From contig OY762897.2 of assembly GCA_963666515.2 (NCBI GenBank), forward strand, positions 320,001 through 384,000: a stretch of 64,000 bases of DNA, written 5' to 3'. Positions 182-35,064 of the stretch are shown piece by piece. Below the pieces are notes generated by a model. The model was not told where the DNA came from and ran no database searches. It worked only from the letters and a program-made list of their open reading frames with translations. Made by a program: the position numbers and the translations under genes. This stretch comes from Candidatus Binatia bacterium. GTDB taxonomy: Bacteria > Desulfobacterota > Binatia > UBA9968 > JAJDTQ01. Positions within the stretch are counted from its first letter, which is position 1. Every line of letters begins with the position of its first letter.

Positions 182-261
182 GAGTTCACCTCAATCTCGC
201 CGAGTCGGGCACATGATTCCACATTCCCGTGCCGATGGCAAAGCCGCCCCGCCCTTCACCC

Positions 262-18774: not shown

Positions 18775-20286
<1,512 letters not shown>

Positions 20287-20301
20287 TGGCACGGTGCTTG
20301 C
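20287..20301 (+). promoter_or_regulatory. Sigma-54 (-24/-12) promoter upstream of hsdR
   Basis: TGGCACGGTGCTTGC matches TGGCACG-N4-TTGC exactly; it begins 1 nt after the activator stop and precedes the GAGGAGG RBS. Confidence 0.88.
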
Positions 20302-20335: not shown

Positions 20336-23062
20336 GTGAGCCCGCGTGAGAGCGAGGCGGATGCGCGAATCGTCATCGACGAGTTGCTGAGGCAGGCAGG
20401 CTGGGACCCCGCGGACAAGTCGATGGTGGGCACCGAGGTGCCGTCGTCGCAATCGTCCGAGGCCATCGAGCTTGTGGACCGCTCCCGTGCACGGCCTTTC
20501 GAGATGCATGCCCCTGTCTACAATCTCGTGGCGGCGGCCGGGGAGTTCGGCCCGGACATGACCGTGGGAACGACCGCGGAGGAAATCGGCTGGAAAACCG
20601 TCCCCAGCCACGTCCGGCTCACCCGCGACCATTTCGTGGCGCGCGTGGACGGACAGTCCATGGAGCCCACCATCCCCGACCGTTCGTACTGTCTCTTCCG
20701 CACGGACCGGGGAGGGAGCCGCGAAGGCAAGCTCGTCCTCGTCTGGCATCGCGGCTGCTCCGATCCGGGTCTCGGCGGGGAGTTCTCGGTCAAGAAGTAC
20801 ACCAGCGCCAAGGCCGTGGCGCCGGACGGCGACACCTGGAGCCACCGTGAAATCCGGCTGAAGCCGCTCAACCCCGATCCGGCCTACCGCGACCTGGTCT
20901 TCGACCCGGCCGCCGAGGGCGACCTCCGCGTCATCGGCGAGTTCGTCTGCGTCCTGGACACGGCGGAAGGCGCGGAACCCAGACGCGGAAGGGCCGACTA
21001 CGTCCTCTATGACCAGCGCGGACGCCCCTTGGCCGTCATTGAGGCCAAGAAGAACGCCATCAACCCCTACGTCGCCAAGCAACAGGCGCTGCCGTATGCC
21101 AAGGCCCTGGGCGCGCCCTTCATCTTCTTGACCAACGGCGAACTGACCTACTTTTGGGACTACCAGAACGACGACGCCCGCCCCATCGCCGGCTTCTTCT
21201 CCCGCCGCGACCTGGAGCGGATCGTGGAGATGCGGGAACAGCGCAAGCCGCTGGCCACGGTCGATATCCCGGAACACTACATCCGCCAGGGGGAGACCCG
21301 CACGGTGCGGCCGTACCAGGCCGACGCCATGCGCGCCCTCGATCATGCCTTCGAGCTGGGCAAGCGCCGCTTCCTGATCGAGCTTCCGACCGGCACCGGC
21401 AAGACCGACCTCATGTGCCTGTACCTCAAGCGGCTGCTGGACGCCGGCTGGGCCGAGCGAGTCCTCTTCCTGGTAGACCGGGAACAGCTTGCCAAGCAGG
21501 CCATCGAGGCCATCCAGGACATCCTGTCCGCACACTCCAGCTATTGGCTGCGGCCGGGCTCGGCCCGCCAGGAACAGCAGATCACCGTCGCGCTGCTCCA
21601 GACCATGATCGGGCGAGTGGACGAATACACCGCCGGCTACTTCGACGTCGTTATCGCCGACGAGTGCCATCGCTCCATCTACGGCTCCTGGCAGACGGCA
21701 TTGACCCGGTTCGACGCGCTCCACATCGGCCTCACCGCCACGCCGGCGAGCTACATCGAGCGCAACACCTACGACTTCTACCAGTGCGAGCCCGGCAAGC
21801 CCGACGTGTCCTATCCGCTGAAGGAGGCCTTCCGCGACAAGTACCTGGTGCCGTACCGGTTCGCGACGGGCATCACCGAGATCGTGGCGGAAGGGGCCGA
21901 CGTGGACGACGAACACTACGACCCCGCCGAGTTCGAGCGCCGCTGGACCAACGCGGAGACGAACCGCCTGATGATGGAGGAGTTCGATCACCTCGCGTGG
22001 GAAAACTTCAAGGAGCTAGCGCCCGGCCAGGACCCCGGACCCGGCAAGGCCATCGTCTTCGCCATCACCAAGCACCATGCCGCGCGCCTGGCCCAGTACC
22101 TGAACGAGCTTCACCCCGAACACAAGGGCCGGTACGCGGAAGTCATCACCTCCGACGTGGCCGATCCGGACGCCTTGATACGGAAGTTCAAGAGGGAGAC
22201 CTATCCCATGGTGGCGGTCAGCGTTGGCATGCTCGACACTGGCTTCGACTGCCGGGAGGTGCTGCATCTGGTCCTGTGCCGCCGCGTACGGAGCCCCATT
22301 CTCTACCAGCAGATGCGCGGCCGCGGCACCCGCACCGCGCCGCACATCGGCAAGCAGCAGTTCGTGATCTACGACTTCTTCAAGAACCACGAGTACTTCA
22401 ACGACAGCGACGGCGGCGGGGTCACCGGCACGGGAGGCGGACACGCGCCGGACGGCCCCACGACGCCGCCGGAGCCGCCTCCTGCCCTTGTCGAGCTTGG
22501 CCTCGAAGACGAATGGCTCGAAGCCGTCACCTACATCGAGGTCGGTCCCGAGGGCGAGCGCGTCGACAAGAAAGAGTACGTGACCCACTGGGTGGAGACC
22601 ATCCGCTCCCAGGCAGCGGATGATCCGCTGCTCCGCAAGGTGCGGGACGAAGAGCCGCTGGAGCCGGACGAGGAAGAGGAACTCGCGCGGCGCCTCAACC
22701 GGCCCGAGCGCTACTTCAACGAGGACAACCTCCGGCGCGCCTACCGCGACCCGGGAGGCAGCCTCGTGGACTTCATCCGCGCGGCCCTCGGGCGGCTGCA
22801 CATCAAGAGCCGAGAGGAAAAACTGGAAGAGACCTTCCGCGCGTGGCTCGTCGCGCGTTCCCTCACGCCGCAGCAGGCCGAGTACCTCTGTCTGCTGAAG
22901 AACCGCGGCATCGCCACCGGGCGGGTCAGCCTCAGCGACCTCTTCGAGCCGCCGCTGTCGATTCTCGATGCCGCCGGCAAGGGTGTAGAATTGTTCGGGG
23001 AAGAGGGTCTAAAGGAAGTGGTCGCGCGGCTCAATGAAGATGTCTTCAGGGCCGCCGGTTGA
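20336..23062 (+). CDS. hsdR: Type I restriction endonuclease subunit R (EcoEI/EcoAI-like) with an inserted S24 LexA-like peptidase domain
   Basis: GTG start after GAGGAGG; ADYVL...IEAKK nuclease motif; RPYQ, PTGTGKT, DECHRS, GLTATP, MLDTGFD, QMRGRGTR helicase motifs; S24 motifs at about 20507-20956. Confidence 0.92.
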   Translation: MSPRESEADARIVIDELLRQAGWDPADKSMVGTEVPSSQSSEAIELVDRSRARPFEMHAPVYNLVAAAGEFGPDMTVGTTAEEIGWKTVPSHVRLTRDHFVARVDGQSMEPTIPDRSYCLFRTDRGGSREGKLVLVWHRGCSDPGLGGEFSVKKYTSAKAVAPDGDTWSHREIRLKPLNPDPAYRDLVFDPAAEGDLRVIGEFVCVLDTAEGAEPRRGRADYVLYDQRGRPLAVIEAKKNAINPYVAKQQALPYAKALGAPFIFLTNGELTYFWDYQNDDARPIAGFFSRRDLERIVEMREQRKPLATVDIPEHYIRQGETRTVRPYQADAMRALDHAFELGKRRFLIELPTGTGKTDLMCLYLKRLLDAGWAERVLFLVDREQLAKQAIEAIQDILSAHSSYWLRPGSARQEQQITVALLQTMIGRVDEYTAGYFDVVIADECHRSIYGSWQTALTRFDALHIGLTATPASYIERNTYDFYQCEPGKPDVSYPLKEAFRDKYLVPYRFATGITEIVAEGADVDDEHYDPAEFERRWTNAETNRLMMEEFDHLAWENFKELAPGQDPGPGKAIVFAITKHHAARLAQYLNELHPEHKGRYAEVITSDVADPDALIRKFKRETYPMVAVSVGMLDTGFDCREVLHLVLCRRVRSPILYQQMRGRGTRTAPHIGKQQFVIYDFFKNHEYFNDSDGGGVTGTGGGHAPDGPTTPPEPPPALVELGLEDEWLEAVTYIEVGPEGERVDKKEYVTHWVETIRSQAADDPLLRKVRDEEPLEPDEEEELARRLNRPERYFNEDNLRRAYRDPGGSLVDFIRAALGRLHIKSREEKLEETFRAWLVARSLTPQQAEYLCLLKNRGIATGRVSLSDLFEPPLSILDAAGKGVELFGEEGLKEVVARLNEDVFRAAG

Positions 23063-23072
23063 AGAGGAGTCC

Positions 23073-24722
23073 ATGGACCAGACACTGCGACGCAAGCTCG
23101 ATCACATCACCGACGTTCTGTGGGCTGGGGGTGTGACCAACCCGGTCACCTACATCGAGCAGATTTCCTACCTCATCTACCTGAAGCTCCTGGACGAGGA
23201 GGAGTCCGAGCGCGAGCTTAGAGGCCGCCTCGGAGTCGGCAACGGCGCCAGCCTCTTCCCTCGTCAAGCCGCCCGTTTCCGCTGGTCCAAGTGGCGTTTC
23301 CAGAGCGGCGAGGGGCTCCGCAACTTCGTTCGGGACGAGGTCTTCCCCTACATGGCCTCCCTGGTGAAAGACGAACCCCATGTGGCCGACTATTTCCGCG
23401 ACGCCGTACTCGAAATCGTCGATCCCAACGTGCTGAAGCAGGTCATCGACGAACTGGACTCCATCGATTTCCGCAAGCTCGGTCCCGACATCAAGGGCGA
23501 CATCTTCGAGTACCTGCTCACGCATCTCGGCCAGTCGGCACTCAACGGCCAGTTCCGGACGCCACGCCAGATCCGCGCCTTCATGGTCCAGATGGTCGAT
23601 CCGGATCTGGGCGATACAGTCTATGATCCGGCCTGCGGGACGGCCGGCTTCCTCATTGATGTGGTGGATCACATTCTCGCTCGCTACAGCGAGGAGCCCA
23701 AGGAAACCCCCATCTATGGCGAGGACTGGCTGGAGAAGCGCGAGCAGACACTGGATGAGGCGAAGAAGGAGATTCCAAACCTTCAGACTTATAGAAAGGG
23801 AGCAGGGGAGAAGATACCAGACTGGCGTCGCCTTGAGGCATCCATCTACGGCACCGACGTGTCACGCCAGATGATGCGGATCGCCTCGATGAACCTCGTG
23901 CTCCATGGCATCCGCCGCGCCAACCTCAAACGCGGCAATGTCCTTTCCGAGATGGGCGGCCTCACCGAAGACGACCTGAACCGCCGGTACTCGGTGATTC
24001 TTTCCAACCCTCCCTTCGCTGGGCAAATTCCGGCGGGATCCATTCGTCAGGACTTGCCGTCGAAGTCCAAGAAGAGCGAGCTTTTGTTCCTCGCCCTCAT
24101 GTTGCGGTCACTTGCCCCAGGCGGGCGTTGTGCCGTGGTGGTGCCCGAGGGGGCGCTCTTCGGCTCGACCAAGGCGCATAAGGAACTTCGCGGGAAGTTG
24201 CTACGAGAATATGAGGTGCAGGCAGTGGTTTCGCTGCCTTCCGGCGTGTTCAAGCCCTACGCCGGTGTCAAGACTTCTGTCCTTGTGATTCGCCGTCCTA
24301 CAATGGGGCCGGACGAGGGGCAGATCGGCACCAAACAGGTCTGGTTCTATGAGGTAGGTAACGACGGCTACGACCCGGACAAAATCCAAGGCGGCGGTCG
24401 CCCTGAGACGCCGGACAAAAACGACATCCCCGGCATGTTGGCAGCATGGGCTGACTACAAGGCGTCACGCTTCCAGGAGCCGCCGGGTGTGGAGACTGGT
24501 GTTTTTCTTGACGCCGGATGTGTGGAGCCACGCTGCTGGTGGGCGCCCTTCGAGACTATCGTGGACAGCGACTTCGATTTGGCCGCCTCTCGCTACAAGC
24601 CGCGCATCGGCCAAGAGTTTCCAGAGGAGGACCCCGTTGAATTGATCCGTGAGGTTCTCGCAATTGAGGAAGAGATTACGAGCGGGCTGGAAGCGCTGCT
24701 GAGTGAGGTTGAAGGCACGTGA
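23073..24722 (+). CDS. hsdM: Type I RM N6-adenine methyltransferase subunit M
   Basis: GDIFEYLL, GQFRTPR, DPACGTAGFL, NPPF, GVFKPYAGVKT. Confidence 0.95.
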   Translation: MDQTLRRKLDHITDVLWAGGVTNPVTYIEQISYLIYLKLLDEEESERELRGRLGVGNGASLFPRQAARFRWSKWRFQSGEGLRNFVRDEVFPYMASLVKDEPHVADYFRDAVLEIVDPNVLKQVIDELDSIDFRKLGPDIKGDIFEYLLTHLGQSALNGQFRTPRQIRAFMVQMVDPDLGDTVYDPACGTAGFLIDVVDHILARYSEEPKETPIYGEDWLEKREQTLDEAKKEIPNLQTYRKGAGEKIPDWRRLEASIYGTDVSRQMMRIASMNLVLHGIRRANLKRGNVLSEMGGLTEDDLNRRYSVILSNPPFAGQIPAGSIRQDLPSKSKKSELLFLALMLRSLAPGGRCAVVVPEGALFGSTKAHKELRGKLLREYEVQAVVSLPSGVFKPYAGVKTSVLVIRRPTMGPDEGQIGTKQVWFYEVGNDGYDPDKIQGGGRPETPDKNDIPGMLAAWADYKASRFQEPPGVETGVFLDAGCVEPRCWWAPFETIVDSDFDLAASRYKPRIGQEFPEEDPVELIREVLAIEEEITSGLEALLSEVEGT

Positions 24723-25954
24723 ACCCCTGGCATACCCAGCCAATCGGAGCTGTCTGTACACCGACCGAGCAGCGTGATCCTCGGGACGGTTCCGCGGGGG
24801 AGTTTCGATATGTCGACATCACCGGGATCGACCGCGTTCGCAAGAGGATCGCAGAATCCCGCACCATCCCTTGTGCAGATGCTCCGGGTCGGGCACGCAA
24901 GGTCATCCGGAAAGACGATGTACTTGTATCTACCGTTCGTCCAAACCTCAACGCGGTCGCGATGGTACCTGAGGAATTGGATGGCGAGATCGCCTCGACG
25001 GGATTCTGCGTTCTGCGTGCGAATAGAGAACTGCTTGATCCTCGATATCTGTTCTACCGCGTCATCTCTACCGATTTCGTTAAAGAGCTAACCTCGAAGG
25101 TAAGAGGCGCCAACTATCCAGCAGTATCTGATGCAGAAGTAAATAGAGTGGACATCCCGGTCCCCACCCTCTCCGAACAGCATCGCATCGTCGAGATCCT
25201 CGACCAAGCCGATCACCTCCGCCGGCTTCGCGCTGAAGTCGACGCCAAAGCCGATGGAATCCTCCCCGCAATCTTCCTCAGGATGTTCGGCGACCCTGCC
25301 ACGAACCCGATGAAGTGGCAGAAGTGTGCGCTTCATGAATTGGCGACCATTACGACTGGCAACACCCCCTCACGTAGGAGACCCGAGTACTACGGAGAGT
25401 TCATTGAATGGGTCAAGTCAGACAATCTCAATACCGCATCTCATTACGTTACTACAGCCGCAGAGGGCCTCTCGAACCTTGGGGCAAAAGTCGCCCGGAC
25501 GGTGCCTGCGGGGTCCACGCTCGTGACGTGTATCGCAGGTAGTCCAGGTGCCATTGGTAATTCGGCCTTGGCTGACCGAGAGGTTGCGTTTAATCAGCAA
25601 ATCAATGCCGCGACACCTAAGCTTGGCGTAGATAGCTGGTTTCTCTACGGGCAGTTCCTTGCCGGAAAGCGCCTTGTCCAGGATGCCTCGACAGGCGGGA
25701 TGAAGGGACTAGTATCGAAGCATCGCTTCAGCAGAATCGAGTTCATGGTGCCACCACTTGACTTGCAGAGGGACTTCGGACGGCACTGCAACCGCCTTTG
25801 CAATCAAAAGCAGGTACGCTTGAGAGAAGTTAGGCGGTTCAACAGACTGTTCGATATCCTGGTGGTTCGCGCCTTTTCAGGTAAGCTAACAGAGTCCTGG
25901 CGGGAAAGGAGTTTTTCAGGAGTTGGGGCAAAAAAAGCTAGCTCGACAAGGTGA
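24719..25954 (+). CDS. hsdS: Type I RM specificity subunit S
   Basis: Two TRDs, PTLSEQHRIVEILD, FGDPATNPMKW, PPLDLQRDF, AFSGKL; GTGA overlap with hsdM. Confidence 0.93.
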   Translation: MNPWHTQPIGAVCTPTEQRDPRDGSAGEFRYVDITGIDRVRKRIAESRTIPCADAPGRARKVIRKDDVLVSTVRPNLNAVAMVPEELDGEIASTGFCVLRANRELLDPRYLFYRVISTDFVKELTSKVRGANYPAVSDAEVNRVDIPVPTLSEQHRIVEILDQADHLRRLRAEVDAKADGILPAIFLRMFGDPATNPMKWQKCALHELATITTGNTPSRRRPEYYGEFIEWVKSDNLNTASHYVTTAAEGLSNLGAKVARTVPAGSTLVTCIAGSPGAIGNSALADREVAFNQQINAATPKLGVDSWFLYGQFLAGKRLVQDASTGGMKGLVSKHRFSRIEFMVPPLDLQRDFGRHCNRLCNQKQVRLREVRRFNRLFDILVVRAFSGKLTESWRERSFSGVGAKKASSTR

Positions 25955-26038: not shown

Positions 26039-29000
26039 ATGACACTTCCAGGTGGATCCGCAAATAAGCTTGGCAACCGCTATGAGGAGTTATGGACCGT
26101 ATGGGTATTGGTCCGTATGCTCCACGATGATGCCGAATCGATTCGGATCGAGGACCCGGGGACTGAGAAAGCCGAATTCGTAGTGACGTTGGCCTCCCAT
26201 CGAGAGCTGCATCAGGTGAAACGTGGCCACCGAGACGGTAAGTGGAGCCTCAAGGATCTCGGGGCGACCGATGGCGGACTACTTCATGTAATCGGGCAAC
26301 AACTAGCAGGCAATAGCGACCGATTTGTTTTTGCGTCAAGCAGTGACGCCGCGGTGTTGCGCAATTTGTGCGAGGAGGCGAGTGCCGCAGAATCGATTGA
26401 GGAGTTCAAGCGATGGTTTCTCGAGGCTGGAGATAAGAAGGAAGGATTCAAGACGCTTCAGGAGTGTTGGGGGTGTGATGTCTCCACCGCATTTGATCTC
26501 CTGCGGCGGATAGATGTCCAAACTATCGACGAGGCTGCACTCAAAGAGAAGTTGCTGTTGGGGGTTGAGGCCCTGTTCTTGGCGGATCCTCAGAAGGTCC
26601 TTGTCGAATTACGTGCCATAGTAAGGGATTCAGTACATCAGACGATTATCCGCGAAGGACTCGTCGACGCTCTCAAACAGCGCGGTTATCAGCTACGTCG
26701 GTTAACCAGCAGTCAACGGGCACGGGACGCTGTCAAGGCTGCGACCGATCAGTACCTGCACGGTGCGAAGATACAACTCATTCAGCATAGGCTCCTTCCG
26801 CGGCCGTCGACGACAATGCTGCTGGCGGGCCTGGAGGGACCTGCGACGGACCATGTCCTGACCGGTGGTGCAGGCTCAGGGAAGACAGCTTGCGTCGTCG
26901 AGGTTGTGGAGGCGGTGCGAGAGAGGGGACTGCCTGTGTTGGCGTTCCGGCTCGACCGCCTTCCCGCGCTATCAACGACGGAAGCTCTTGGACGCCAACT
27001 CGATCTTGAGGAGTCGCCGGTCCTTGTACTTGCGGCAGCGGCACAGACCGCCGGAGTCCCTGGCCTATTGATTGTGGATCAGTTGGATGCCGTCAGCACC
27101 ATGTCGGGCAGGAGTTCTGGTGCCTTCGATCTGGTCGAGCGGTTGCTTCACGAGGCGCGAGGTACTCGCACACGGGCCACTATCCACACCGTCGTCGTTT
27201 GCCGAGCCTTCGACTGGAGAAATGATTCACGGCTGCGGCGGCTCCTGCCTGACGAACACGGACAAGTCGACGTTACCGAGTTCACGGATGAGGAGGTCAG
27301 GGAGTTTCTGACTAATGCGGGTTTTGACACGGCGTGGTTCCGGTCAGGTCAACTGGAGTTGCTCCGGCTTCCGCAAAACCTCTCGCTTTTTCTTGAGGCT
27401 GGTTTTGACACGCGTCTCGCGCCAGCTTTCCGGACGGCGACGGATCTATTTAGTCGATACTGGGATGAAAAGCGACGGTCGGTCGCCGATCGAGTCGTAC
27501 CATCCGCTGACCAGTGGATGGAGGTTATGGAAATTCTATGCGAAGAGATGACCTCCACTCAGCAGCTATCAGTAGCCAAAGAGAGACTTGACACGATTCC
27601 GATCAGCTACTTGGACCAACTGGCGTCGGAGGGCGTGGTTACGTTTGACGGGCGCCGTTACGGGTTCGGTCACGAGAGCTTCTTCGACTATTGCTTCGCC
27701 CGAGTGTTCTTCAATCGGTCGGATTCGCTCGTGTCCTTCCTCAAGGGGCCAGACCAGCATCTGTTCCGTCGCGCTCAGGTTCGGCAGGTGCTGGCCTATC
27801 TACGTGACGCAGATTCTGTGCGTTACATTCAGGAACTTCACAGCCTGCTCTCGGATGAGGGAATACGGGTCCATCTCAAGGATCTAGCTTTTGCGCTTCT
27901 TGCCGCAGTCGTGGATCCGACCGAGGAAGAGTGGACCATCTGGCAAGAATGGCTTGCACCGGCGCTCAGCGCCATCGAGGGTGGGCTTCGCAACGCGAAC
28001 AAACTGTCTGAATTGGCGTGGCGGCGGTTTTTTGGCGCACCCTCGTGGTTTGATGTCGCCGATCACCGCGGCTTGGTCGAGGCTTGGCTGGCCTCAGATA
28101 ACGGTGAACTTGCAAACACTGCATTGAACTACTTGAGGTTGCATCAAGGCAATTCGCCGGATCGCGTTGCAGCCTTGCTCGAACCATATGCCGACTGTGG
28201 TGGTCAGTGGAAGGTGAGGCTTCGATTCTTTATGGAATCGGCCGACCATCACACGAGTCGTCGCGTGTTTGACCTGTTTCTCCGTCTCGTGGACAACGGT
28301 ACACTCGACGAAGCCCGCGGGTCGAGGGCGGTGAACGGTACATTCTGGGACATGCTCCATGATCTCGGCGAAAACCGTCCAGAGTGGGTTCCGGAGGTGC
28401 TAGCCCATGTGCTCCGGCGGCGCCTTGCGATAGTCCGGGCCGCCGGGGAAGATCTACGCAAACCGGATCTCCTTGGTTACGACGCCTCTGCCGCAGAGAT
28501 GTTAGGGAAGTCCGCGAAATCCGCTCCCGCCGTGTTCGTGAAGCACGTGCTGCCTTTGGTTCTCGATATTTCGGAGGCAACCGTCCTTCCCGGTGGAGAA
28601 CCACCAAAACACGATGTTGTGTGGTCGTATCTTATCAAGACGGAGCATCCCAGGGGCGAGGATGCGTGTCTTTCGGGATTGGTCGCAGCGATCGGTGCAC
28701 TGGCGCGTGATGGTACAGCAAATTTACGCGACATTGTCGCTGACCTGCGCAGTCGCGACACACACATCGCAAACCACTTGTTGCTTGCCCTTTACGCTGG
28801 CGGTGCCGCACACTACGCGGACGAAGCGATTTCGTTGCTTTGTGATCAACCATGGCGGTTCCAATGTGGGTTTTCTGACAGCCCGGTTTGGTGCGCGATG
28901 GAACTCATCAAGGTAGTGCTTCCGCACTGCACCGTCGAGAGTCGCGAAAGGCTCGAAGATGTGCTCCTTCGTTACGCCGCACCTTTCGAGCGCAGTAGTG

Positions 29001-30565
29001 CCGGTTACAAATTCGCTGGAGAGACGCGATTTAACCTGCTCTCGGCTTTCCCCGTAAAGCAACGCAGCGCTCGGGTGAACAAGCACTTGCAGGAGTTGTT
29101 TCGAAAATTCGGTGAACCGCAAGGCGTGCCAACACTGCCTGTCGCGGGTTGGGTGGGTTCGCCGATCGCGAAGAGCGCCGTGTATAGAATGACCGACGAG
29201 CAGTGGTTGCGGGCCATCGCCAAGTACCGCTCTGAGTACCCGACACACTTCGGGCCGGGTGATCTCAGAGGCGGTGCTACGCAATTGGCACAAGAACTCG
29301 AAACCAGGGTCAAGGAGGAACCAGATCGGTTTGCTCGCCTCAGTCTGAGGTTTCCTCCAGGAACTAACCCTGTATATCTGGAATTGACGCTCTCCGCATT
29401 GAAGGGCGCCGAGGTGGCAAGCACTCTCAAACTTGAGGTCTGTCGCAAGGCCTTTGCGGATTCACGCGGGTCATGCGGCAGGTCGATTGTCGCTTTACTT
29501 GGATCCATTGAAGGCCCGCTTCCGAATGATGCTGTCGAAATGCTCGGTTGGCTAGCGATCGATCACGAAGACCCTGTCGAAGAGTTATGGCAAAAGGATG
29601 CTGGTGGTGGTCACCCCGACTATAATGGCGATGTCCAAATGGACGGCATTAACACTACACGGGGGAGAGCAGCCGACGCTATTCGGGCTCTCATCCTTGC
29701 CGACGTGACCTATGTCGAACGGTTTCGTCCAGCTCTCGAACGAATGATCAGGGACCGGAGTGCGGCTGTTCTTTCCCGTATTGCAGGTACGCTACAGGCC
29801 GTAGCGTACCATGATTCTGCACTTGCTCTGTCGCTTTTCCTTTGCATGGATCTATCCGAGGAACGACTGCTTGCAACACGGTACGTCTACGGGTTTATTC
29901 ATGGCAACCTGCGAGACAGCTTTGGTCAACTGCGGCCAATTGTCGAACGGATGCTCCGATCGTCCGAACCGAAGGTCGCTACGGCGGGCGCACGACTGGC
30001 AAGCCTTGCGGCGGTGGATCACGATGGTGCCGGGATCCTCGCCGTAGAGGCCGTCTCTGGGAGCCCGGATCAACGTCTCGGAGTTGCTCAAGTTGCAGCC
30101 GCAAATATTGGCGTCCCTCGGTGTCGCTCCTGGTGCGAAGAGACGCTTCGTGCACTGTTTGACGACTCCCACGTCGACGTGAGGGTCGAAGCGGCGGCAT
30201 GTTTCAGCAATCTGCCCGACGACACACTCGATACCTTTGGTAATCTGATTGAGGCATTCAGCGTCAGCGCCGCCTTTCGGGAGGACTCGTTCTCGATCTT
30301 TCATGCACTGGAGGCTTCACTGGGCCGCTTGCCGGGGATGACGTGTGCGGTCTGCGAGAAGTTCCTGGATCGCTTTGCAAAAGAGGCCAGAGACATGCGA
30401 ACGTGTCAGGCCGGGGACACCTTTACTCTCACGAAGTTGATTTTCAGGATCTACCAGCAACACCAGAACGATGAATGGACGTCACGTTCGCTGGACCTTA
30501 TAGATCGCCTTTGCCTGGAAGGAATTGGCGACACAGCACAACAGTTTGAGGAGTTCGAGCGCTAA
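26039..30565 (+). CDS. Avs/AVAST-like STAND NTPase with N-terminal Cap4-like PD-(D/E)xK nuclease and long helical C-terminal region
   Basis: GNRYEELW...EFVV...HQVK N-terminus; GGAGSGKT Walker A; LIVDQLD Walker B; VVCR; LRLPQNL; FGHESFFDY winged-helix motif; 1508 aa. Confidence 0.78.
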   Translation: MTLPGGSANKLGNRYEELWTVWVLVRMLHDDAESIRIEDPGTEKAEFVVTLASHRELHQVKRGHRDGKWSLKDLGATDGGLLHVIGQQLAGNSDRFVFASSSDAAVLRNLCEEASAAESIEEFKRWFLEAGDKKEGFKTLQECWGCDVSTAFDLLRRIDVQTIDEAALKEKLLLGVEALFLADPQKVLVELRAIVRDSVHQTIIREGLVDALKQRGYQLRRLTSSQRARDAVKAATDQYLHGAKIQLIQHRLLPRPSTTMLLAGLEGPATDHVLTGGAGSGKTACVVEVVEAVRERGLPVLAFRLDRLPALSTTEALGRQLDLEESPVLVLAAAAQTAGVPGLLIVDQLDAVSTMSGRSSGAFDLVERLLHEARGTRTRATIHTVVVCRAFDWRNDSRLRRLLPDEHGQVDVTEFTDEEVREFLTNAGFDTAWFRSGQLELLRLPQNLSLFLEAGFDTRLAPAFRTATDLFSRYWDEKRRSVADRVVPSADQWMEVMEILCEEMTSTQQLSVAKERLDTIPISYLDQLASEGVVTFDGRRYGFGHESFFDYCFARVFFNRSDSLVSFLKGPDQHLFRRAQVRQVLAYLRDADSVRYIQELHSLLSDEGIRVHLKDLAFALLAAVVDPTEEEWTIWQEWLAPALSAIEGGLRNANKLSELAWRRFFGAPSWFDVADHRGLVEAWLASDNGELANTALNYLRLHQGNSPDRVAALLEPYADCGGQWKVRLRFFMESADHHTSRRVFDLFLRLVDNGTLDEARGSRAVNGTFWDMLHDLGENRPEWVPEVLAHVLRRRLAIVRAAGEDLRKPDLLGYDASAAEMLGKSAKSAPAVFVKHVLPLVLDISEATVLPGGEPPKHDVVWSYLIKTEHPRGEDACLSGLVAAIGALARDGTANLRDIVADLRSRDTHIANHLLLALYAGGAAHYADEAISLLCDQPWRFQCGFSDSPVWCAMELIKVVLPHCTVESRERLEDVLLRYAAPFERSSAGYKFAGETRFNLLSAFPVKQRSARVNKHLQELFRKFGEPQGVPTLPVAGWVGSPIAKSAVYRMTDEQWLRAIAKYRSEYPTHFGPGDLRGGATQLAQELETRVKEEPDRFARLSLRFPPGTNPVYLELTLSALKGAEVASTLKLEVCRKAFADSRGSCGRSIVALLGSIEGPLPNDAVEMLGWLAIDHEDPVEELWQKDAGGGHPDYNGDVQMDGINTTRGRAADAIRALILADVTYVERFRPALERMIRDRSAAVLSRIAGTLQAVAYHDSALALSLFLCMDLSEERLLATRYVYGFIHGNLRDSFGQLRPIVERMLRSSEPKVATAGARLASLAAVDHDGAGILAVEAVSGSPDQRLGVAQVAAANIGVPRCRSWCEETLRALFDDSHVDVRVEAAACFSNLPDDTLDTFGNLIEAFSVSAAFREDSFSIFHALEASLGRLPGMTCAVCEKFLDRFAKEARDMRTCQAGDTFTLTKLIFRIYQQHQNDEWTSRSLDLIDRLCLEGIGDTAQQFEEFER

Positions 30566-30614
30566 GGAAGGACGCGATGATGTCGTACCGTAGTGGTGAG
30601 AATGGCGCTGTCGT

Positions 30615-32357
30615 ATGCTGACCAAACTCACCATCCGCAACTTCAAACTTTTTGGCGAAGTCGAGATCGAGCTAGGGAGCCCTGTCGTTTTCATCGGGCC
30701 GAACAACTCCGGCAAGACTTCGGCCATGCAGGCGCTCGCCCTGTGGGACATCGGGCTCAGGCGCTGGAACGAGAAGCGCTATGGGAAGAGCACGCCGGAG
30801 AAGCGTCCTGGGGTCACCATCAGTCGTCGGGACTTGGTGGCAATCCCGATTCCTGACGGCAATCTCCTGTGGCGTGACCTTCACGTTCGGGACGTCCAGA
30901 AGGTCGATGGGAAGCCGCGTACCAGCAATGTCCGTATCGAGATCGTGGTCGAGGGAATGAGCAACGACCATTCATGGGTCTGTGGACTGGAGTTTGACTA
31001 CGCGAACGAAGAATCCTTCTATTGCCGGCCTCTTCGCCAGTTTGACGACAAGACGCCCGAGCGGATGCCAGTTCCTGAAGAAGCGGGTCATGCACGGATC
31101 GTGTTCCTGCCCCCGATATCGGGGCTCGCGGCCACGGAGACACGGCTTGATACAGGTGCTGTGGATGTGCGGATTGGGGAAGGGCGTACCGCAGAGGTGC
31201 TGCGCAACCTCTGTTTCCAGGTTCATGGGGCGCAGACGAAGCAGTGGGACCGGCTGGTGAAGCAGATCGAGAGTCTTTTCGGGACGGTGGTGGAGCCGCC
31301 CCGCTACGTGCCGGAACGCGGCGAGATCGTGATGAGTTACCACGAGCGTGGAACGAGGCTCGATCTGTCTTCCGCTGGATGTGGTCTTCAGCAGACTCTG
31401 TTTCTTTTGGCGTACATGTACGCCAACCCCGGATCGGTCCTGCTTCTGGACGAGCCCGACGCACATCTGGAGATACTTCGCCAACGTCAGACCTACCGCC
31501 TGCTGACCGACGTGGCTCGTGAAAGTGGCAGTCAGATCATCGCTGCGAGCCACTCGGAGGTGTTGCTAAACGAGGCCGCCGACCGGGATCTGGTCGTGGC
31601 CTTCGTGGGCCGACCGCACCGTATCGACGGCCGCGGAAGCCAAGTGCTGAAGGCGCTCAAGGAGATCGGTTTCGAGCAGTACTACCAGGCAGAGCAGAAC
31701 GGGTGGGTGCTCTACCTGGAGGGCTCGACGGACCTCTCGATTCTTCACGCTTTTGCCCGACGACTGGGGCACGAACGGGCGTTGCAGGTGCTTGAGCGGC
31801 CGTTCGTTAAATACGTCGGGAACAATGCCAGCGCGGTCAAGAACCATTACCACGGGTTGCGGGAGGCGGTCCCGGGGCTTCAGGGAGTCGTCCTGTTTGA
31901 TCGCTTGGAGTCGGAACCGCGGGACATGGCCCCGGTCGAGTGTCTCATGTGGAAGCGCCGTGGGATCGAGAACTACTTGTGCTCGAAGGCTACGTTGGAG
32001 GCATATGCGACCGCCTCAGCGACTGAAACCGTGGCGGGGCCGCTGTTTACACGAGCCGAAGCCGACAAGCGTATGAACGCAATGCGGCAATCCATCGAAC
32101 CGGTGGAGTCGGCGCTGAGGACCTCGGGCAAGGGCTCTCCTTGGAACGCGGGCATCAAGGCTAGCGGCGATTTCCTGGAACCCGTCTTCAAAGCCTATTT
32201 CGAGAAGCTGGGGCTGCCGAACCTCATGGCCAAGAAGAACTGCCACGAATTGGTGGAGTACGTTCCAGACCACGAGATCGACCTGGAGATTCGCGAGAAG
32301 CTCGACGGCATTGTGCGGGTCGCGGAAAGGGCCGAGCCGGTCGGAGAACTGTCGTGA
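30615..32357 (+). CDS. ABC-type (AAA_15/AAA_21) ATPase fused to a TOPRIM-like domain (OLD/PARIS-like)
   Basis: IRNFK, GPNNSGKT, LSSAGCGLQQ, LLDEPDAHL, ASHS; C-terminal YLEGSTD, LFDR, IENYL. Confidence 0.75.
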   Translation: MLTKLTIRNFKLFGEVEIELGSPVVFIGPNNSGKTSAMQALALWDIGLRRWNEKRYGKSTPEKRPGVTISRRDLVAIPIPDGNLLWRDLHVRDVQKVDGKPRTSNVRIEIVVEGMSNDHSWVCGLEFDYANEESFYCRPLRQFDDKTPERMPVPEEAGHARIVFLPPISGLAATETRLDTGAVDVRIGEGRTAEVLRNLCFQVHGAQTKQWDRLVKQIESLFGTVVEPPRYVPERGEIVMSYHERGTRLDLSSAGCGLQQTLFLLAYMYANPGSVLLLDEPDAHLEILRQRQTYRLLTDVARESGSQIIAASHSEVLLNEAADRDLVVAFVGRPHRIDGRGSQVLKALKEIGFEQYYQAEQNGWVLYLEGSTDLSILHAFARRLGHERALQVLERPFVKYVGNNASAVKNHYHGLREAVPGLQGVVLFDRLESEPRDMAPVECLMWKRRGIENYLCSKATLEAYATASATETVAGPLFTRAEADKRMNAMRQSIEPVESALRTSGKGSPWNAGIKASGDFLEPVFKAYFEKLGLPNLMAKKNCHELVEYVPDHEIDLEIREKLDGIVRVAERAEPVGELS

Positions 32358-34090
32358 ACCTTTTCGGCTTCCGTGTTGCCAACTTCAAGGCCTTCGCTGC
32401 CGCACAGCGAGTGCCGCTACGACCGATCACGCTCATCTATGGCGCCAACAGCGCTGGAAAATCGAGTGTCCTGCACACACTGGCCTTGGTCCACCATGCC
32501 ATTGAGACCGGGGACCTGGACACACAACGGACTCAGATTGGCGGCGAGTCCATAGATCTCGGCGGGTTCCGGCAGTACGTGCACCGGCACCAGCGAGATC
32601 AGCAAGTCCAACTCGGTTTCGAGCTTGATCCCGGTCGGCTTTCCGGGCGCGTGGCAGCGCTGTTGCGCTCGGCACGCAGTATCGTCGTGGAGTTGTCGAT
32701 CGGCGAAGGGATTACGAGCAATCAACCCGACCTCTTCGGGGACTACATGCGGGAGTTGGATGGGAAGGGGGTTCGCCTCGAACGCTTCGGTCTTGAGGTG
32801 GACGACGCGTCCCTGTTATCCATGAGCGCACGGCCGGGAGGGCTGTTGCGTCTCGATAGTCTCGACCATGCGCATCCGGTTTTCCGCGAGTTGTTTCGTG
32901 GACTCTTGACGTTGGCTACGACGACCGAAGAAATCCGCGAGGAGGATTTCGCTGCCCTTGGTGACGTGCTCGACACGTTGGTCCCATCCATAACGGCCAG
33001 ACGGCGCGGTTTGTTCCTTCGGGTCGAGGACGAAGTCGAGGTCAGTGAGGGGGAGGGAGAAGGCTGGGAGGCGTTGATGCCGGTCAGTCGCGGGCGTCGC
33101 CGGGAGGACTTGGGGCGAGCGGGTCGCCTCTTTCTTCCCCGGGCCTTGCGCGAACTGGTGGAGGGTCTCGGAGCGGCAATCGAAGAAGACATCCGACGAC
33201 TTCGCTACCTCGGACCACTGAGATCCTATCCGCCGCGTCACCTTGCCTTTGCACAACATCACGATCCCAACTGGTTCGCGGGCGGCGGCTACGCTTGGGA
33301 TGTAGTCCGCACGCGCGCCGATGTCCGACAGCGTGTGAACACTTGGCTCAGCGACACTGATCGCCTCAAGACACCCTATGAGCTTGAAGTACGAGACCTG
33401 CTGCCCGCGACGACAGTGTCCAGGGAGCTTCCAGACAAACTTGGCGAGGCGTTTTTCGATTTCGCGACGACGCTTGCTTCGGATGGCGCCGACCGGCTCG
33501 CTGAACTCGGCCGCAAATATGAAGAAGACGTCCTGCCCGACATAGCAGAACTCGTGGCATCGGTCAGTGAAGTGGAGGCGTTGTCGGAGGACTGGGCTGA
33601 CGAGATGGTCAAGGCGTCCCCTGACGTACTTCAGGACTTGGTTCTCATCGACAAGCGGACCGGCACCCCCGTGAGCCACCGCGACGTGGGCATCGGTGTC
33701 AGCCAAGTGCTGCCCGTCCTCGTCTCGGCCTTCGCGTCGGAGAACCGGCTGGTTGCCATCGAGCAGCCCGAGATACACCTTCATCCGGCCCTTCAGGCGG
33801 AATTGGGTGATGTGTTCGTGGAATCGGCGCTTGAAGGCGGCAACACTTTCCTGATCGAGACTCACAGCGAGCATCTGCTGCTTCGCATCATGCGTCGCAT
33901 CAGGCAGACGAGCAGTGGCGACCTGCCGGACGGAGCGCCTGCGGTTCGTCCGGAGGACGTGATGGTGCTTTTCGTGGAACCCGACGGACCGAGGAGCATC
34001 GTCCGCGAGATGCCTCTCAACGAGCGCGGTGAACTGGTGAAGGCATGGCCCGGCGGCTTCTTCGAGGAAGGACTGCGGGAGATCTTCTGA
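32354..34090 (+). CDS. ABC-type ATPase with DUF3696-like C-terminus
   Basis: ANFKAF, GANSAGKS, YLGPLR, DVGIGVSQVLPV, IEQPEIHLHP, ETHSEH, WPGGFF. Confidence 0.85.
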   Translation: MNLFGFRVANFKAFAAAQRVPLRPITLIYGANSAGKSSVLHTLALVHHAIETGDLDTQRTQIGGESIDLGGFRQYVHRHQRDQQVQLGFELDPGRLSGRVAALLRSARSIVVELSIGEGITSNQPDLFGDYMRELDGKGVRLERFGLEVDDASLLSMSARPGGLLRLDSLDHAHPVFRELFRGLLTLATTTEEIREEDFAALGDVLDTLVPSITARRRGLFLRVEDEVEVSEGEGEGWEALMPVSRGRRREDLGRAGRLFLPRALRELVEGLGAAIEEDIRRLRYLGPLRSYPPRHLAFAQHHDPNWFAGGGYAWDVVRTRADVRQRVNTWLSDTDRLKTPYELEVRDLLPATTVSRELPDKLGEAFFDFATTLASDGADRLAELGRKYEEDVLPDIAELVASVSEVEALSEDWADEMVKASPDVLQDLVLIDKRTGTPVSHRDVGIGVSQVLPVLVSAFASENRLVAIEQPEIHLHPALQAELGDVFVESALEGGNTFLIETHSEHLLLRIMRRIRQTSSGDLPDGAPAVRPEDVMVLFVEPDGPRSIVREMPLNERGELVKAWPGGFFEEGLREIF

Positions 34091-35032
34091 ATGTCTCTGA
34101 TCGCGGACTACGCCATCACGCCCGACGTGCTCGACTCGGCCTCCTATACCAGCGAGGAGGTTTGCGGTCTGCACTTGCGGGAAATCAGTCAGGTCATGAG
34201 GAGCGAGGGGCTGGTTCGCGACCTCCGTGCCGGAGAGTGGCGAGGGCTATTCGCTGGGGGCGAACGCTCATGGCATCGCTTGGGCAAGGAAATGGTGCGG
34301 AAGCTGGCAACGGAGGGGCGATTGATCAGCTTCCCGCCCCGGCTTTCCAGGGCTCCTTCCGATGATCAGGACTGGTGCGAAGAGGCAGTCCGGTCCGACG
34401 TGACGGAACCATTCTCGGGCGGAGTCGTTGTGACGGAGTCGATCAAGGCGGCGTATGCAACGGACAGCCGCGTGGAGCGCGTCGACCGGCTCAGCAGGGC
34501 GGCTTGGTGGAGCCGCCGGAGTCCATCGGTTCGTTTGTCCCGGACTCTGGACGATTACAAGGAACACCTGGGTCCGATTCTGCGTTGCGCGAACTCGTTG
34601 CAGTTCATCGATCCTCACCTCAATCCAACGATTCGTCGATATCAACAGTTCAAGGAGCTGCTGTCCGTTGCCGGCAGGCGTAGCCCGCGGCCAACGATCG
34701 AAGTCCACCGCGTGTGCTACGAGGGATCCGGGCCAGGCCGCCGGATACTTGACGTCCGGAGCCTTGAACAGGATTTTCGCACTGCGCTTGCCGCTGGTTT
34801 GGCCGAAGCGGGTTCGCAGATTGAAGTGTTCGTTTGGGACGACTTCCACGACCGTTATCTGATCAGCAACCTGATCGGGGTGTCGCTGCCGAACGGCTTC
34901 GATACCACGAGCAACGTCAACGAGAAGACGACCTGGAGCCGCTTGGGGCGGGATGAACGCGACGATGTGCAACGCGAGTTCGACCCGGCCGTCGGGCGAC
35001 ACCGTCTGCACGGACGATTCAGCATTCCGTAG
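34091..35032 (+). CDS. Hypothetical protein with C-terminal PLD-like (HDR) motif, putative effector
   Basis: ATG directly follows the ATPase TGA; LQFIDPHL and FHDRYLISNLIGVSLPNGFD motifs. Confidence 0.6.
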   Translation: MSLIADYAITPDVLDSASYTSEEVCGLHLREISQVMRSEGLVRDLRAGEWRGLFAGGERSWHRLGKEMVRKLATEGRLISFPPRLSRAPSDDQDWCEEAVRSDVTEPFSGGVVVTESIKAAYATDSRVERVDRLSRAAWWSRRSPSVRLSRTLDDYKEHLGPILRCANSLQFIDPHLNPTIRRYQQFKELLSVAGRRSPRPTIEVHRVCYEGSGPGRRILDVRSLEQDFRTALAAGLAEAGSQIEVFVWDDFHDRYLISNLIGVSLPNGFDTTSNVNEKTTWSRLGRDERDDVQREFDPAVGRHRLHGRFSIP

Positions 35033-35064
35033 GGTTGGGTGATGCGCTTGGCCGAGGTGAACTC

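What the first reader, a model, noticed from the sequence alone, without database searches (positions are those of the whole stretch)
20336..21050. LexA-like S24 autopeptidase inserted inside the nuclease domain of HsdR
Seen: HsdR begins normally (SEADARIVIDELLRQAGW). About 150 aa then intervene before the ADYVL...IEAKK catalytic motif (D221, E236, K238). The insert carries all LexA/cI/UmuD hallmarks: PVYNLVAAAG with an Ala68-Gly69 site (20537-20542), VDGQSMEP with Ser108 (20657), FSVKK with Lys153 (20792), LKPLNP and VIGEFV. Known: S24 domains self-cleave at Ala-Gly on RecA*-ssDNA filaments, and some type I systems reduce restriction after DNA damage through ClpXP proteolysis of HsdR. Inference: this is a built-in SOS switch that clips off the first helix of the nuclease, either disarming it (self-contained restriction alleviation) or arming it. 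I know of no characterised example.
Basis: partly seen in the sequence, partly recalled or inferred. Interest (0 to 1): 0.92.

Follow-up and report, generated by a model that had tools for sequence, protein, structure and literature searches.

The report
Self-cleaving LexA-like module inside HsdR
The DNA-cutting subunit of a type I restriction enzyme carries an intact LexA-type self-cutting protease module spliced into a loop of its nuclease domain, which probably lets a DNA-damage signal switch the nuclease by proteolysis, a form of control not described for restriction enzymes.

Summary
hsdR (20336-23062, 908 aa) has a Peptidase_S24 module (about residues 46-208) inserted between helix 1/strand 1 and the D221..E236-x-K238 core of its nuclease. 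Pfam scores it above its cut-off. An AlphaFold model of residues 1-300 matches LexA, lambda cI and UmuD' structures.

Ser108 and Lys153 are present in 121 of 121 close homologues. In 152 aligned stretches from distant relatives, 142 keep Ser and 137 keep Lys. Ala68-Gly69 is nearly as constant.

It is not an assembly artefact. Thirty-nine genome loci from more than ten phyla carry the same insert.

The same S24 subfamily sits at the extreme C-terminus of many other restriction and defence enzymes, including Nhi-like helicases, Type ISP enzymes, McrC, HNH and UvrD-like proteins.

New here: near-identical insert-free HsdRs are nested among insert-bearing ones, with at least 5 state changes on the tree, so the module is an optional accessory. 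The operon usually follows an RtcR-like CARF activator and a sigma-54 promoter.

Self-cleavage, a RecA trigger and the direction of the switch (off is favoured) are inferred, not shown. This scan has noted the same architecture before on other DNA (28 notes). I found no publication on it.

The parts
20336..23062 (+). hsdR, 908 aa: nuclease with S24 insert, SF2 motor and EcoEI_R_C tail
   Evidence: ORF and translation. Pfam finds HSDR_N 214-280, ResIII 323-471, Helicase_C 569-666 and EcoEI_R_C 746-901. PADLOC finds REase_I at 6e-87.
20336..20443 (+). N-terminal piece of the PD-(D/E)xK nuclease: helix 1 (residues 7-20, with E7, D9, R11) and strand 1 (31-36, with E34)
   Evidence: AF2 model of residues 1-300 gives H7-20 and E31-36. 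E7, R11 and E34 are invariant in alignment A1, which includes the insert-free relatives.
20444..20470 (+). variable linker before the S24 module (residues 37-45)
   Evidence: These are the most variable columns among 121 homologues. pLDDT is below 50 for residues 36-43 in the full-length model.
20471..20959 (+). LexA-type S24 module (residues about 46-208), including the cleavage-site strand
   Evidence: PF00717 scores 28.5 bits against a cut-off of 23.3. Foldseek of the model hits LexA, lambda cI and UmuD' with target TM 0.67-0.73. All 19 PDB hits of the subfamily profile are LexA, cI or UmuD.
20537..20542 (+). predicted scissile bond Ala68-Gly69 in PVYNLVAAA|GEFG
   Evidence: A68 is present in 117/121 and G69 in 120/121 close homologues. 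Among 152 distant stretches, position 68 is A in 129 and C in 12, and position 69 is G in 129. The site lies at the end of strand 58-67 before a flexible loop (67-73, pLDDT below 50).
20657..20659 (+). Ser108 codon (nucleophile, motif G-x-S-M-E-P)
   Evidence: Present in 121/121, 40/40 loci plus window, and 142 of 152 distant stretches with 7 gaps.
20792..20794 (+). Lys153 codon (general base, motif F-S-V-K-K-Y)
   Evidence: Present in 121/121, 40/40, and 137 of 152 distant stretches with 10 gaps.
20960..20986 (+). short variable linker back into the nuclease (residues 209-217)
   Evidence: Variable columns 209-217. pLDDT is below 50 for residues 211-215.
20996..21049 (+). catalytic core of the nuclease, D221 ... 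E236-A-K238
   Evidence: D221, E236 and K238 are invariant in A1. Strands 219-225 and 231-237 appear in the model. Foldseek hits HsdR structure 3h1t.
20287..20301 (+). sigma-54 type -24/-12 element TGGCAC-N5-TTGC, directly after the stop codon of the activator gene and 35 nt before the hsdR start
   Evidence: Read from the sequence. A like element lies within 120 nt upstream of hsdR in 25 of 39 related loci. rpoN is present in the genome.
18775..20286 (+). RtcR-like enhancer-binding protein (CARF-like N-terminus, sigma-54 AAA+ domain, HTH)
   Evidence: PADLOC RtcR_PspF2--CARF_AAA_HTH at 1.4e-191. Pfam Sigma54_activat at 2.2e-66 and HTH_8. Found upstream of hsdR in 21 of 39 S24-bearing loci.
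23034..24722 (+). hsdM, overlapping the end of hsdR by 29 nt
   Evidence: PADLOC MTase_I at 3.7e-132.
24719..25954 (+). hsdS
   Evidence: PADLOC Specificity_I at 3.5e-58.

Best explanation
hsdR encodes a complete type I (IB-like) restriction subunit. Its PD-(D/E)xK nuclease domain carries a functional LexA-type S24 autopeptidase as a domain insertion in the loop between helix 1/strand 1 and the D..ExK strands.

I propose the following mechanism. As in LexA, UmuD and lambda cI, a RecA-ssDNA filament formed after DNA damage stabilises the cleavable conformation. Such damage includes breaks that the enzyme itself makes at unmodified chromosomal sites. Ser108/Lys153 then cut the Ala68-Gly69 bond. 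This severs the 68-residue piece that holds helix 1 (E7) and strand 1 (E34) from the rest of the nuclease and leaves it with a new ...L-V-A-A-A carboxyl end. The nuclease is thereby disabled, either directly or after the loose piece is extracted by an unfoldase such as ClpXP. The motor and the methyltransferase stay intact. The result would be a self-contained restriction alleviation, that is, an autoimmunity brake.

Shown here: the domain identity, the fold, the conserved dyad and site, the insertion point, spread across phyla, optional presence, and the host having RecA and LexA. Inferred: cleavage, the trigger, the off direction and the ClpXP step.
For: 1. S24 identity. Pfam is above its cut-off. 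The AF2 model of residues 1-300 has mean pLDDT 81.1. Its best Foldseek hits are LexA, the cleavable lambda cI fragment and UmuD' (target TM 0.67-0.73), plus HsdR 3h1t for the flanks.

2. The catalytic apparatus is under selection. S108 and K153 are present in 121/121, A68 in 117/121 and G69 in 120/121, while linker columns vary freely. In 152 stretches from representatives of 50%-identity clusters, S is present in 142, K in 137, A or C at P1 in 141, and G at P1' in 129. Cys-Gly is the UmuD site (recalled).

3. The insert is about as conserved as the enzyme. Examples are 66-90% identity for the N-terminal 240 residues against 70-94% for the rest across the loci.

4. The nuclease residues are intact: E7, E34, D221, E236 and K238 are invariant. 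The protein is therefore a working enzyme, not a relic.

5. The module is optional. The tree of the conserved part has 105 rows, 32 of them insert-free. It needs 8 state changes, of which at least 5 are forced by starred branches. That fits a regulatory accessory.

6. The same subfamily is a C-terminal tail in 120 of the 131 representatives whose S24 match is complete. Of 30 scanned, 22 have helicase, nuclease or methylase domains of restriction/defence enzymes and none has an HTH.

7. There is precedent for the off direction. Damage-induced restriction alleviation of types IA and IB works by ClpXP proteolysis of HsdR (passages of PMC12707154; abstract of PMC4231737). LexA cleavage uncovers latent ClpX signals (passage of PMC10584840).

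8. The host has recA and a lexA-like gene.
Against: No experiment or expression data were examined, so cleavage is not shown for any member of this subfamily.

Sequence similarity to characterised S24 proteins is weak. BLASTP against the genome's own LexA gives E 0.57. Profile-to-PDB E-values are only 0.004-0.05.

A strand cut in a loop often stays in place, so cleavage alone need not inactivate the nuclease.

In the C-terminal fusions, cleavage would merely release the S24 core. An off switch there needs an extra assumption, either a degron or loss of dimerisation.

The conserved Ala-Ala-Ala before the site may reflect only the protease's own substrate groove, not a ClpX signal.

Sixteen insert-free 735-aa forms sit next to the window's clade, so the enzyme does well without the module.

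One related locus is labelled as an archaeon, which would lack RecA. It is a 5.5-kb contig of a metagenome bin, so the label is weak.
Confidence: 0.45

Rival explanations
1. Arming switch. The S24 module holds the nuclease in an inactive state, for example by blocking DNA access or straining the loop. Self-cleavage at Ala68-Gly69 is triggered by RecA filaments on phage or damaged DNA. It frees one end of the module, while helix 1/strand 1 stays bound non-covalently, and this turns the nuclease on.
For: The topology is coherent with the C-terminal fusions, where cleavage simply releases the S24 core from an otherwise intact enzyme. The operon is behind a sigma-54 promoter and a CARF-type activator, which suggests a system kept silent until a signal arrives. 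The cleavage loop is flexible in the models.
Against: Insert-free forms are common and near-identical elsewhere, so the enzyme needs no activation step. The known effect of DNA damage on type I enzymes is alleviation, not stimulation (PMC12707154 passages). A restriction enzyme that is activated by host DNA damage would add breaks to a damaged chromosome.
Confidence: 0.2
2. The module self-cleaves, but the trigger is not RecA*. Cleavage could be a constitutive maturation step, or it could respond to another cue such as a phage protein, the stalled or translocating state of HsdR, or pH.
For: RecA-independent LexA-like proteins exist (IrvR, abstract of PMC7101444 in the listing). This subfamily is distant from LexA and has extra conserved residues of its own: W86, R129, Y155, S157, K159, W168 and H170. 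These could form a different docking surface.
Against: All well-studied self-cleaving S24 proteins with an Ala/Cys-Gly site use RecA* (established knowledge; abstract of PMC9926225). recA is present in the host. A constitutive cut would make the long conserved insert pointless.
Confidence: 0.15
3. Non-proteolytic role. The S24 fold serves as a dimerisation module, as in LexA, cI and UmuD, or as a RecA-filament docking module that brings two nuclease domains together or targets HsdR. No regulatory cleavage takes place.
For: S24 domains of LexA, cI and UmuD are dimerisation domains (established knowledge). Type I enzymes need two nuclease domains for a double-strand cut.
Against: The near-total conservation of Ser, Lys and the small-residue pair at the scissile site across very distant members is hard to explain without catalysis.
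Confidence: 0.1
4. Artefact or decaying gene: a chimeric assembly or a pseudogene with no function.
For: Some related loci do hold broken copies: L030, L033, L038, L040 and L043.
Against: The window's ORF is uninterrupted. The same architecture occurs in 39 loci of different assemblies, several of them on complete chromosomes of 4-7 Mb, and in 96 of the 120 closest HsdR clusters. All catalytic residues are intact.
Confidence: 0.01

Closest known systems
LexA, UmuD and lambda cI (MEROPS family S24, Pfam PF00717)
   Same: Same fold (Foldseek target TM 0.67-0.73). Same Ser-Lys dyad in G-x-S-M and V-K-[KR] motifs. Same Ala/Cys-Gly site on a strand just before the core. Same order of parts, with the cargo N-terminal of the site and the protease core C-terminal.
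   Different: There is no DNA-binding domain. The cargo is part of a nuclease fold, and the polypeptide continues after the S24 core into the rest of HsdR, so this is an internal insertion and not a C-terminal domain. It is a separate subfamily with a longer hairpin after the Lys (Y155-S157-K159...W168-H170) and only weak sequence similarity. Cleavage and the RecA response are untested.
ClpXP-dependent restriction alleviation of type IA/IB enzymes (EcoKI, EcoAI)
   Same: The target is the same subunit (HsdR). The proposed outcome is the same: temporary loss of cutting while modification persists, after DNA damage or when unmodified host sites appear (PMC12707154 passages; PMC4231737 abstract). 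This HsdR is IB-like, with an EcoEI_R_C tail and EcoAI as its best NCBIfam family.
   Different: In that system an external protease recognises translocating HsdR. Here a protease is built into HsdR and would read the RecA signal directly. No S24 domain is mentioned in the review: 0 hits for S24, LexA or peptidase.
Type IB HsdR (EcoAI/EcoEI family)
   Same: N-terminal SEADAR..GW helix, D..ExK nuclease, ResIII/Helicase_C motor, EcoEI_R_C tail, and adjacent hsdM and hsdS.
   Different: It scores below the NCBIfam equivalog cut-off (258.7 against 550). It carries the roughly 163-residue insert. It is usually preceded by a sigma-54 promoter and an RtcR-like activator.
S24-tailed restriction and defence enzymes noted earlier in this scan (HsdR with a C-terminal S24, and others)
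   Same: The same S24 subfamily, 40-56% identical to the insert here, is attached to Nhi-like DUF2075 helicases, Type ISP enzymes, McrC, HNH/methylase, UvrD-like and SNF2-like proteins.
   Different: There the module is the last domain: 120 of the 131 representatives with a complete S24 match. Here it is spliced into the nuclease fold, so cleavage would cut the catalytic domain itself.

Membership tests
Peptidase S24 (LexA-like autopeptidases, PF00717) | Match to the family profile above the curated cut-off | tested here: met
   28.5 bits against a cut-off of 23.3, residues 89-203. Relatives of the subfamily score 23.5-48.9 bits.
Peptidase S24 (LexA-like autopeptidases, PF00717) | Ser nucleophile and Lys general base in the G-x-S-M and V-K motifs | tested here: met
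   S108 and K153 are present in 121/121 and 40/40. In 152 distant stretches, 142 keep Ser and 137 keep Lys.
Peptidase S24 (LexA-like autopeptidases, PF00717) | Ala-Gly (or Cys-Gly) scissile pair on the strand N-terminal of the core | tested here: met
   A68-G69 in VAAA|GEFG. A is present in 117/121 and G in 120/121. In 152 distant stretches, position 68 is A in 129 and C in 12, and position 69 is G in 129.
Peptidase S24 (LexA-like autopeptidases, PF00717) | LexA C-terminal domain fold | tested here: met
   Predicted model only (pLDDT 81.1). Foldseek hits 1jhc, 7b5g, 2ho0, 1umu and 8trg with target TM 0.67-0.73.
Peptidase S24 (LexA-like autopeptidases, PF00717) | Self-cleavage, stimulated by RecA-ssDNA filaments or alkaline pH | not testable with these tools
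   Needs purified protein or in vivo assays.
LexA/cI-type repressors | N-terminal DNA-binding (winged-helix or HTH) domain | tested here: not met
   No such domain is found in P0001 or in any of the 30 scanned relatives. It is an S24 domain but not a LexA/cI repressor.
Type I restriction subunit HsdR | PD-(D/E)xK nuclease motif and SF2 motor domains | tested here: met
   D221, E236 and K238 are invariant. ResIII 7.3e-31 and Helicase_C 1.9e-6. Foldseek hits 3h1t and EcoR124I HsdR.
Type I restriction subunit HsdR | Adjacent hsdM and hsdS genes | tested here: met
   MTase_I 3.7e-132 and Specificity_I 3.5e-58, immediately downstream.
EcoAI/FtnUII family (type IB) HsdR, NCBIfam NF046051 | Score above the equivalog cut-off | tested here: not met
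   258.7 bits against a cut-off of 550. It is the best-scoring family, and the EcoEI_R_C tail is present. It is therefore a relative of type IB, not an equivalog.

The most novel reading that the evidence does not exclude
The S24 module is a portable, RecA-reading proteolytic governor that bacteria bolt onto DNA-cutting immune enzymes (type I, Type ISP, McrBC, Nhi-like, HNH and UvrD-like enzymes). Host DNA damage would then directly and irreversibly switch these nucleases at the protein level. In this HsdR family it has been moved into the nuclease fold itself, so one cut splits the catalytic domain and exposes an Ala-Ala-Ala end for an unfoldase. Together with the CARF/sigma-54 control of transcription, this would be a restriction system with two separate signal inputs: induction by a nucleotide or RNA-damage signal, and shut-off by the SOS signal.
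Probability: 0.4. Interest if true: 0.88.

Novelty: new variant of a known kind. Interest (0 to 1): 0.78.

Why it matters
Restriction enzymes threaten their own chromosome whenever unmodified sites appear. The only known protein-level safeguard for type I enzymes is degradation of HsdR by the external protease ClpXP.

A self-cleaving, SOS-type module built into HsdR, and attached to many unrelated defence nucleases, would be a second, autonomous and widespread way of coupling immunity to DNA damage. It would also extend the LexA/UmuD/cI self-cleavage principle from transcription factors and a polymerase subunit to nucleases.

The idea is directly testable with one purified protein and three point mutants. 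The natural insert-free alleles, 86-91% identical over residues 216-700, provide ready-made controls.

Tried and rejected
Single-sequence phmmer of residues 1-220 against PDB sequences gave only three spurious hits at E about 0.8-0.9. A subfamily profile was needed.

BLASTP of the insert against the genome's own LexA was not significant, E 0.57.

The full-length AF2 model was only moderate (pLDDT 69.7). Its Foldseek hits were dominated by the motor, so I modelled residues 1-300 separately.

Complex prediction with two copies of the insert (alignment A2) returned 'no answer' with score 0.00 and no controls run. It says nothing either way about dimerisation.

I studied gene neighbourhoods instead through the search for related loci on genome contigs.

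The plasmid collection held one 45%-identical S24 module on a Halomonas 1.8-Mb replicon with no annotation. It is a 159-aa ORF directly after a 686-aa ORF. I did not pursue it.

My first sigma-54 regex was too strict and missed sites ending in G. I corrected it after reading the sequences.

Eight literature searches found no description of an S24 domain in HsdR or other restriction/defence enzymes. The 'S24' hits in the Millman et al. preprint are table numbers. The one in PMC5714182 concerns signal peptidases. The 2025 review PMC12707154 has 0 hits for S24, LexA, peptidase or self-cleav. I did not open supplementary files, and domain tables there could mention the fusion.

Neher et al. 2003 (PMC196044) is not held. 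The detail that the LexA N-fragment ends in Val-Ala-Ala and resembles the ssrA tag is recalled. Only the general statement about latent ClpX signals was read (PMC10584840).

I considered and rejected a gene fusion of two ORFs, because the helix-1 segment precedes the insert and the D..ExK segment follows it in one frame. I also rejected an intein or mobile-element insertion, because the insert has no such domains and is a plain S24 fold.
Full report
**Observation**

The window holds a co-oriented gene row. It runs from an enhancer-binding protein gene (18775-20286) through hsdR (20336-23062), hsdM (23034-24722) and hsdS (24719-25954) to further defence-type genes.

hsdR starts at GTG 20336 behind a GAGGAGGA ribosome-binding site. 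Homologues begin at the same residue.
- Ala68-Gly69 at 20537-20542
- Ser108 at 20657-20659
- Lys153 at 20792-20794
- D221/E236/K238 at 20996-21049

Pfam places Peptidase_S24 at residues 89-203 (28.5 bits, cut-off 23.3). It places HSDR_N only from residue 214, matching profile positions 122-196. ResIII, Helicase_C and EcoEI_R_C follow. NCBIfam ranks the type IB EcoAI family first, but below its equivalog cut-off.

**Is the insert a real S24 domain?**

Single-sequence comparisons are weak. A profile of the subfamily (A2, 34 rows) finds only LexA, lambda cI and UmuD among PDB sequences: 19 of 19 hits, E 0.004-0.05.

An AlphaFold model of residues 1-300 was built on 59 aligned sequences and has mean pLDDT 81.1. 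It has these parts in order:
- helix 7-20 and strand 31-36
- an all-beta module from 58 to 206
- strands 219-225 and 231-237 carrying D221 and E236/K238, followed by helix 244-258

Foldseek against the PDB returns LexA from four species, the hyper-cleavable lambda cI fragment and UmuD' (target TM 0.67-0.73). It returns the Vibrio HsdR fragment 3h1t for the flanks. The stretch around the scissile pair (67-73) is the least confident part, as expected for a mobile cleavage loop. The full-length model (pLDDT 69.7) matches HsdR structures.

**Conservation**

Among 121 clusters at least 69% identical over the first 240 residues, the counts are:
- Ser108: 121/121
- Lys153: 121/121
- Ala68: 117/121 (the other four are Gly)
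- Gly69: 120/121

Over the same sequences, the linkers 36-45 and 209-217 vary freely.

Of the 120 listed hits, 115 carry a precomputed PF00717 hit. The other five (P0009, P0022, P0061, P0076, P0078) still align over 98-100% of the query.

In 39 genome loci plus the window, Ser and Lys are present in 40/40 and Ala-Gly in 39/40. The exception, L038, is a broken gene.

The best 150 representatives of 50%-identity clusters gave 152 aligned stretches:
- Ser in 142 (7 gaps)
- Lys in 137 (10 gaps)
- P1: Ala in 129 or Cys in 12
- P1': Gly in 129

The subfamily also has its own conserved residues: W86, F100, R129, Y155, S157, K159, W168, H170 and N179.

**Not an artefact, and widely spread**

A scan of one genome per species found 53 loci, which divide as follows:
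- 39 carry the insert at 65-90% identity. Their records are labelled Binatia, Latescibacterota, Acidobacteriota, Planctomycetota, Gemmatimonadota, Spirochaetia, Gammaproteobacteria and others. Several lie on complete 4-7 Mb chromosomes.
- 1 is a 5'-truncated remnant (L040).
- 9 are insert-free relatives (L041-L049).
- 4 matched only at the N-terminal helix.

The high identity across phyla points to horizontal spread.

**The insert is optional**

Insert-free relatives have, at the same spot, a 12-50 residue low-complexity linker.

I searched with residues 216-700. Of the 120 best clusters, all but one at 86-100% identity, 24 are insert-free and 96 have the insert. Six of those 96 are gene calls that start inside the S24 part.

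I built a tree of the part after the ADYVL motif:
- It has 105 rows: the 75 of alignment A1, plus 24 insert-free and 6 insert-bearing new ones. The six truncated calls were left out.
- It used the quick IQ-TREE method with LG+G4 and SH-aLRT support only.
- It needs 8 changes of the insert state, at least 5 of them forced by starred branches.
- A clade of sixteen 735-aa insert-free forms sits beside the window's own clade.

A smaller tree gave 3 changes.

Because the insert is orthologous and always at the same place, one gain followed by several precise losses, or allele exchange, is the simplest history. The tree is unrooted, so this is an inference.

**A portable module**

Outside HsdR, the same subfamily (40-56% identical) is almost always the last domain. 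Of 150 representatives, 131 have a complete S24 match. In 120 of those it ends within 15 residues of the C-terminus.

I scanned 30 of these representatives against Pfam:

| Partner domain | Count |
|---|---|
| Schlafen-group-3/DUF2075 helicase (some with NERD or GIY-YIG; the Nhi-like layout, per a passage of the Millman preprint) | 9 |
| Type_ISP_C | 5 |
| ResIII-type helicase | 2 |
| McrBC | 1 |
| UvrD-like | 1 |
| DEAD+MZB+REase_MTES_1575 | 1 |
| MmeI/N6_Mtase-like | 1 |
| Methylase plus HNH | 1 |
| HNH | 1 |
| No second domain | 8 |

None has an HTH.

**Context**

The upstream gene is an RtcR-like CARF-AAA+-HTH activator (PADLOC 1.4e-191; Pfam). A TGGCAC-N5-TTGC element at 20287-20301 abuts its stop codon.

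The activator is found upstream in 21 of 39 insert-bearing loci. Three further loci have too little upstream sequence to judge. A like -24/-12 element lies within 120 nt of hsdR in 25 of 39 loci. It is also present in several insert-free relatives, so it belongs to the HsdR family rather than to the insert.

The host genome has rpoN, recA, a lexA-like gene and three other S24 genes.

Downstream lie a weak STAND-like NTPase, two AAA_15/AAA_21 ATPases and a HEPN protein.

**Mechanism**

What is shown: an intact nuclease, an intact S24 catalytic apparatus with its site, purifying selection on both, and optional presence.

What follows from the S24 family's known chemistry: intramolecular cleavage at Ala68-Gly69, most likely promoted by RecA-ssDNA filaments.

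The product would be a 68-residue piece holding helix 1 and strand 1 of the nuclease, ending in Ala-Ala-Ala, plus the remaining 840 residues.

I favour an off switch, that is, built-in restriction alleviation, for these reasons:
- DNA damage is known to alleviate type IA/IB restriction through proteolysis of HsdR (PMC12707154 passages; PMC4231737 abstract).
- LexA cleavage exposes latent ClpX signals (PMC10584840 passage).
- A sigma-54-induced R-M system would meet an under-methylated chromosome at each induction, which is the situation in which alleviation is needed.

This is inference. An arming switch, a non-RecA trigger and a purely structural role remain open (see the rival explanations).

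**Comparison and novelty**

The insert works like LexA, UmuD and cI, and it meets every sequence and fold criterion of family S24 that can be tested here. It lacks a DNA-binding domain, so it is not a repressor.

The protein is a type I HsdR related to type IB.

Eight full-text searches and one recent review gave no description of S24 domains in restriction or defence enzymes.

The scan itself has noted the architecture before: 28 notes in at least 25 genomes. One of them describes the same internal insertion.

This report adds four things:
- the repeated loss of the insert among near-identical HsdRs
- the exact insertion point in the fold
- the link to the sigma-54/CARF context
- the Ala-Ala-Ala end as a possible unfoldase signal

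**Verdict**

This is a real and well-conserved domain insertion. It is a new variant of known kinds. The function is plausible but untested.

Noticed in passing
window 18775-20301: An RtcR-like CARF/AAA+/HTH enhancer-binding protein ends at 20286. A consensus sigma-54 -24/-12 element (TGGCAC-N5-TTGC, 20287-20301) follows at once, 35 nt before hsdR. The pairing recurs in related loci: the activator in 21 of 39 and the promoter-like element in 25 of 39. A type I R-M operon under a signal-dependent sigma-54 activator is unusual in itself.
   Followed up: partly
window 26039-35785: Downstream of hsdS lie a 1508-aa protein with weak AAA_16/NACHT and PADLOC PDC-M54A matches, two AAA_15/AAA_21 ATPases (30615-32357 and 32354-34090), a 313-aa protein with no Pfam hit, and a HEPN protein (35219-35785). 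All are on the + strand, so this looks like a defence island. The 1508-aa protein recurs after hsdS in L002, L006, L007 and L016 at 66-74% identity.
   Followed up: partly
L040:2793-4681; also L030, L033, L038, L043: Several related loci hold decayed copies of this HsdR. L040 keeps only the last third of the S24 insert (from residue 166) with no upstream part. The others have frameshifts or internal deletions.
   Followed up: partly
P0117: An 890-aa protein has the HsdR N-terminus with the S24 insert (71% identity) and an EcoEI_R_C tail. It has an N6_Mtase hit and no helicase domains, so it is either a deletion fusion with hsdM or a mis-assembly.
   Followed up: no
P0234 and P0244: In two non-HsdR relatives the S24 module is not terminal: a Type ISP C-terminal fragment with 196 residues after the module, and a 458-aa protein with 72 after it. 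Internal placement may therefore not be unique to HsdR.
   Followed up: no
L054:1228-2548 (own genome): The genome's LexA-like gene (212 aa, site VQA|GG) is followed directly by a 223-aa ORF. I did not identify that ORF.
   Followed up: no
L061:3998-6468 (Halomonas 1.8-Mb replicon): A 45%-identical S24 module lies in a 159-aa ORF directly after a 686-aa ORF. No annotation is listed for this region. It may be a split or frameshifted S24-tailed enzyme.
   Followed up: no
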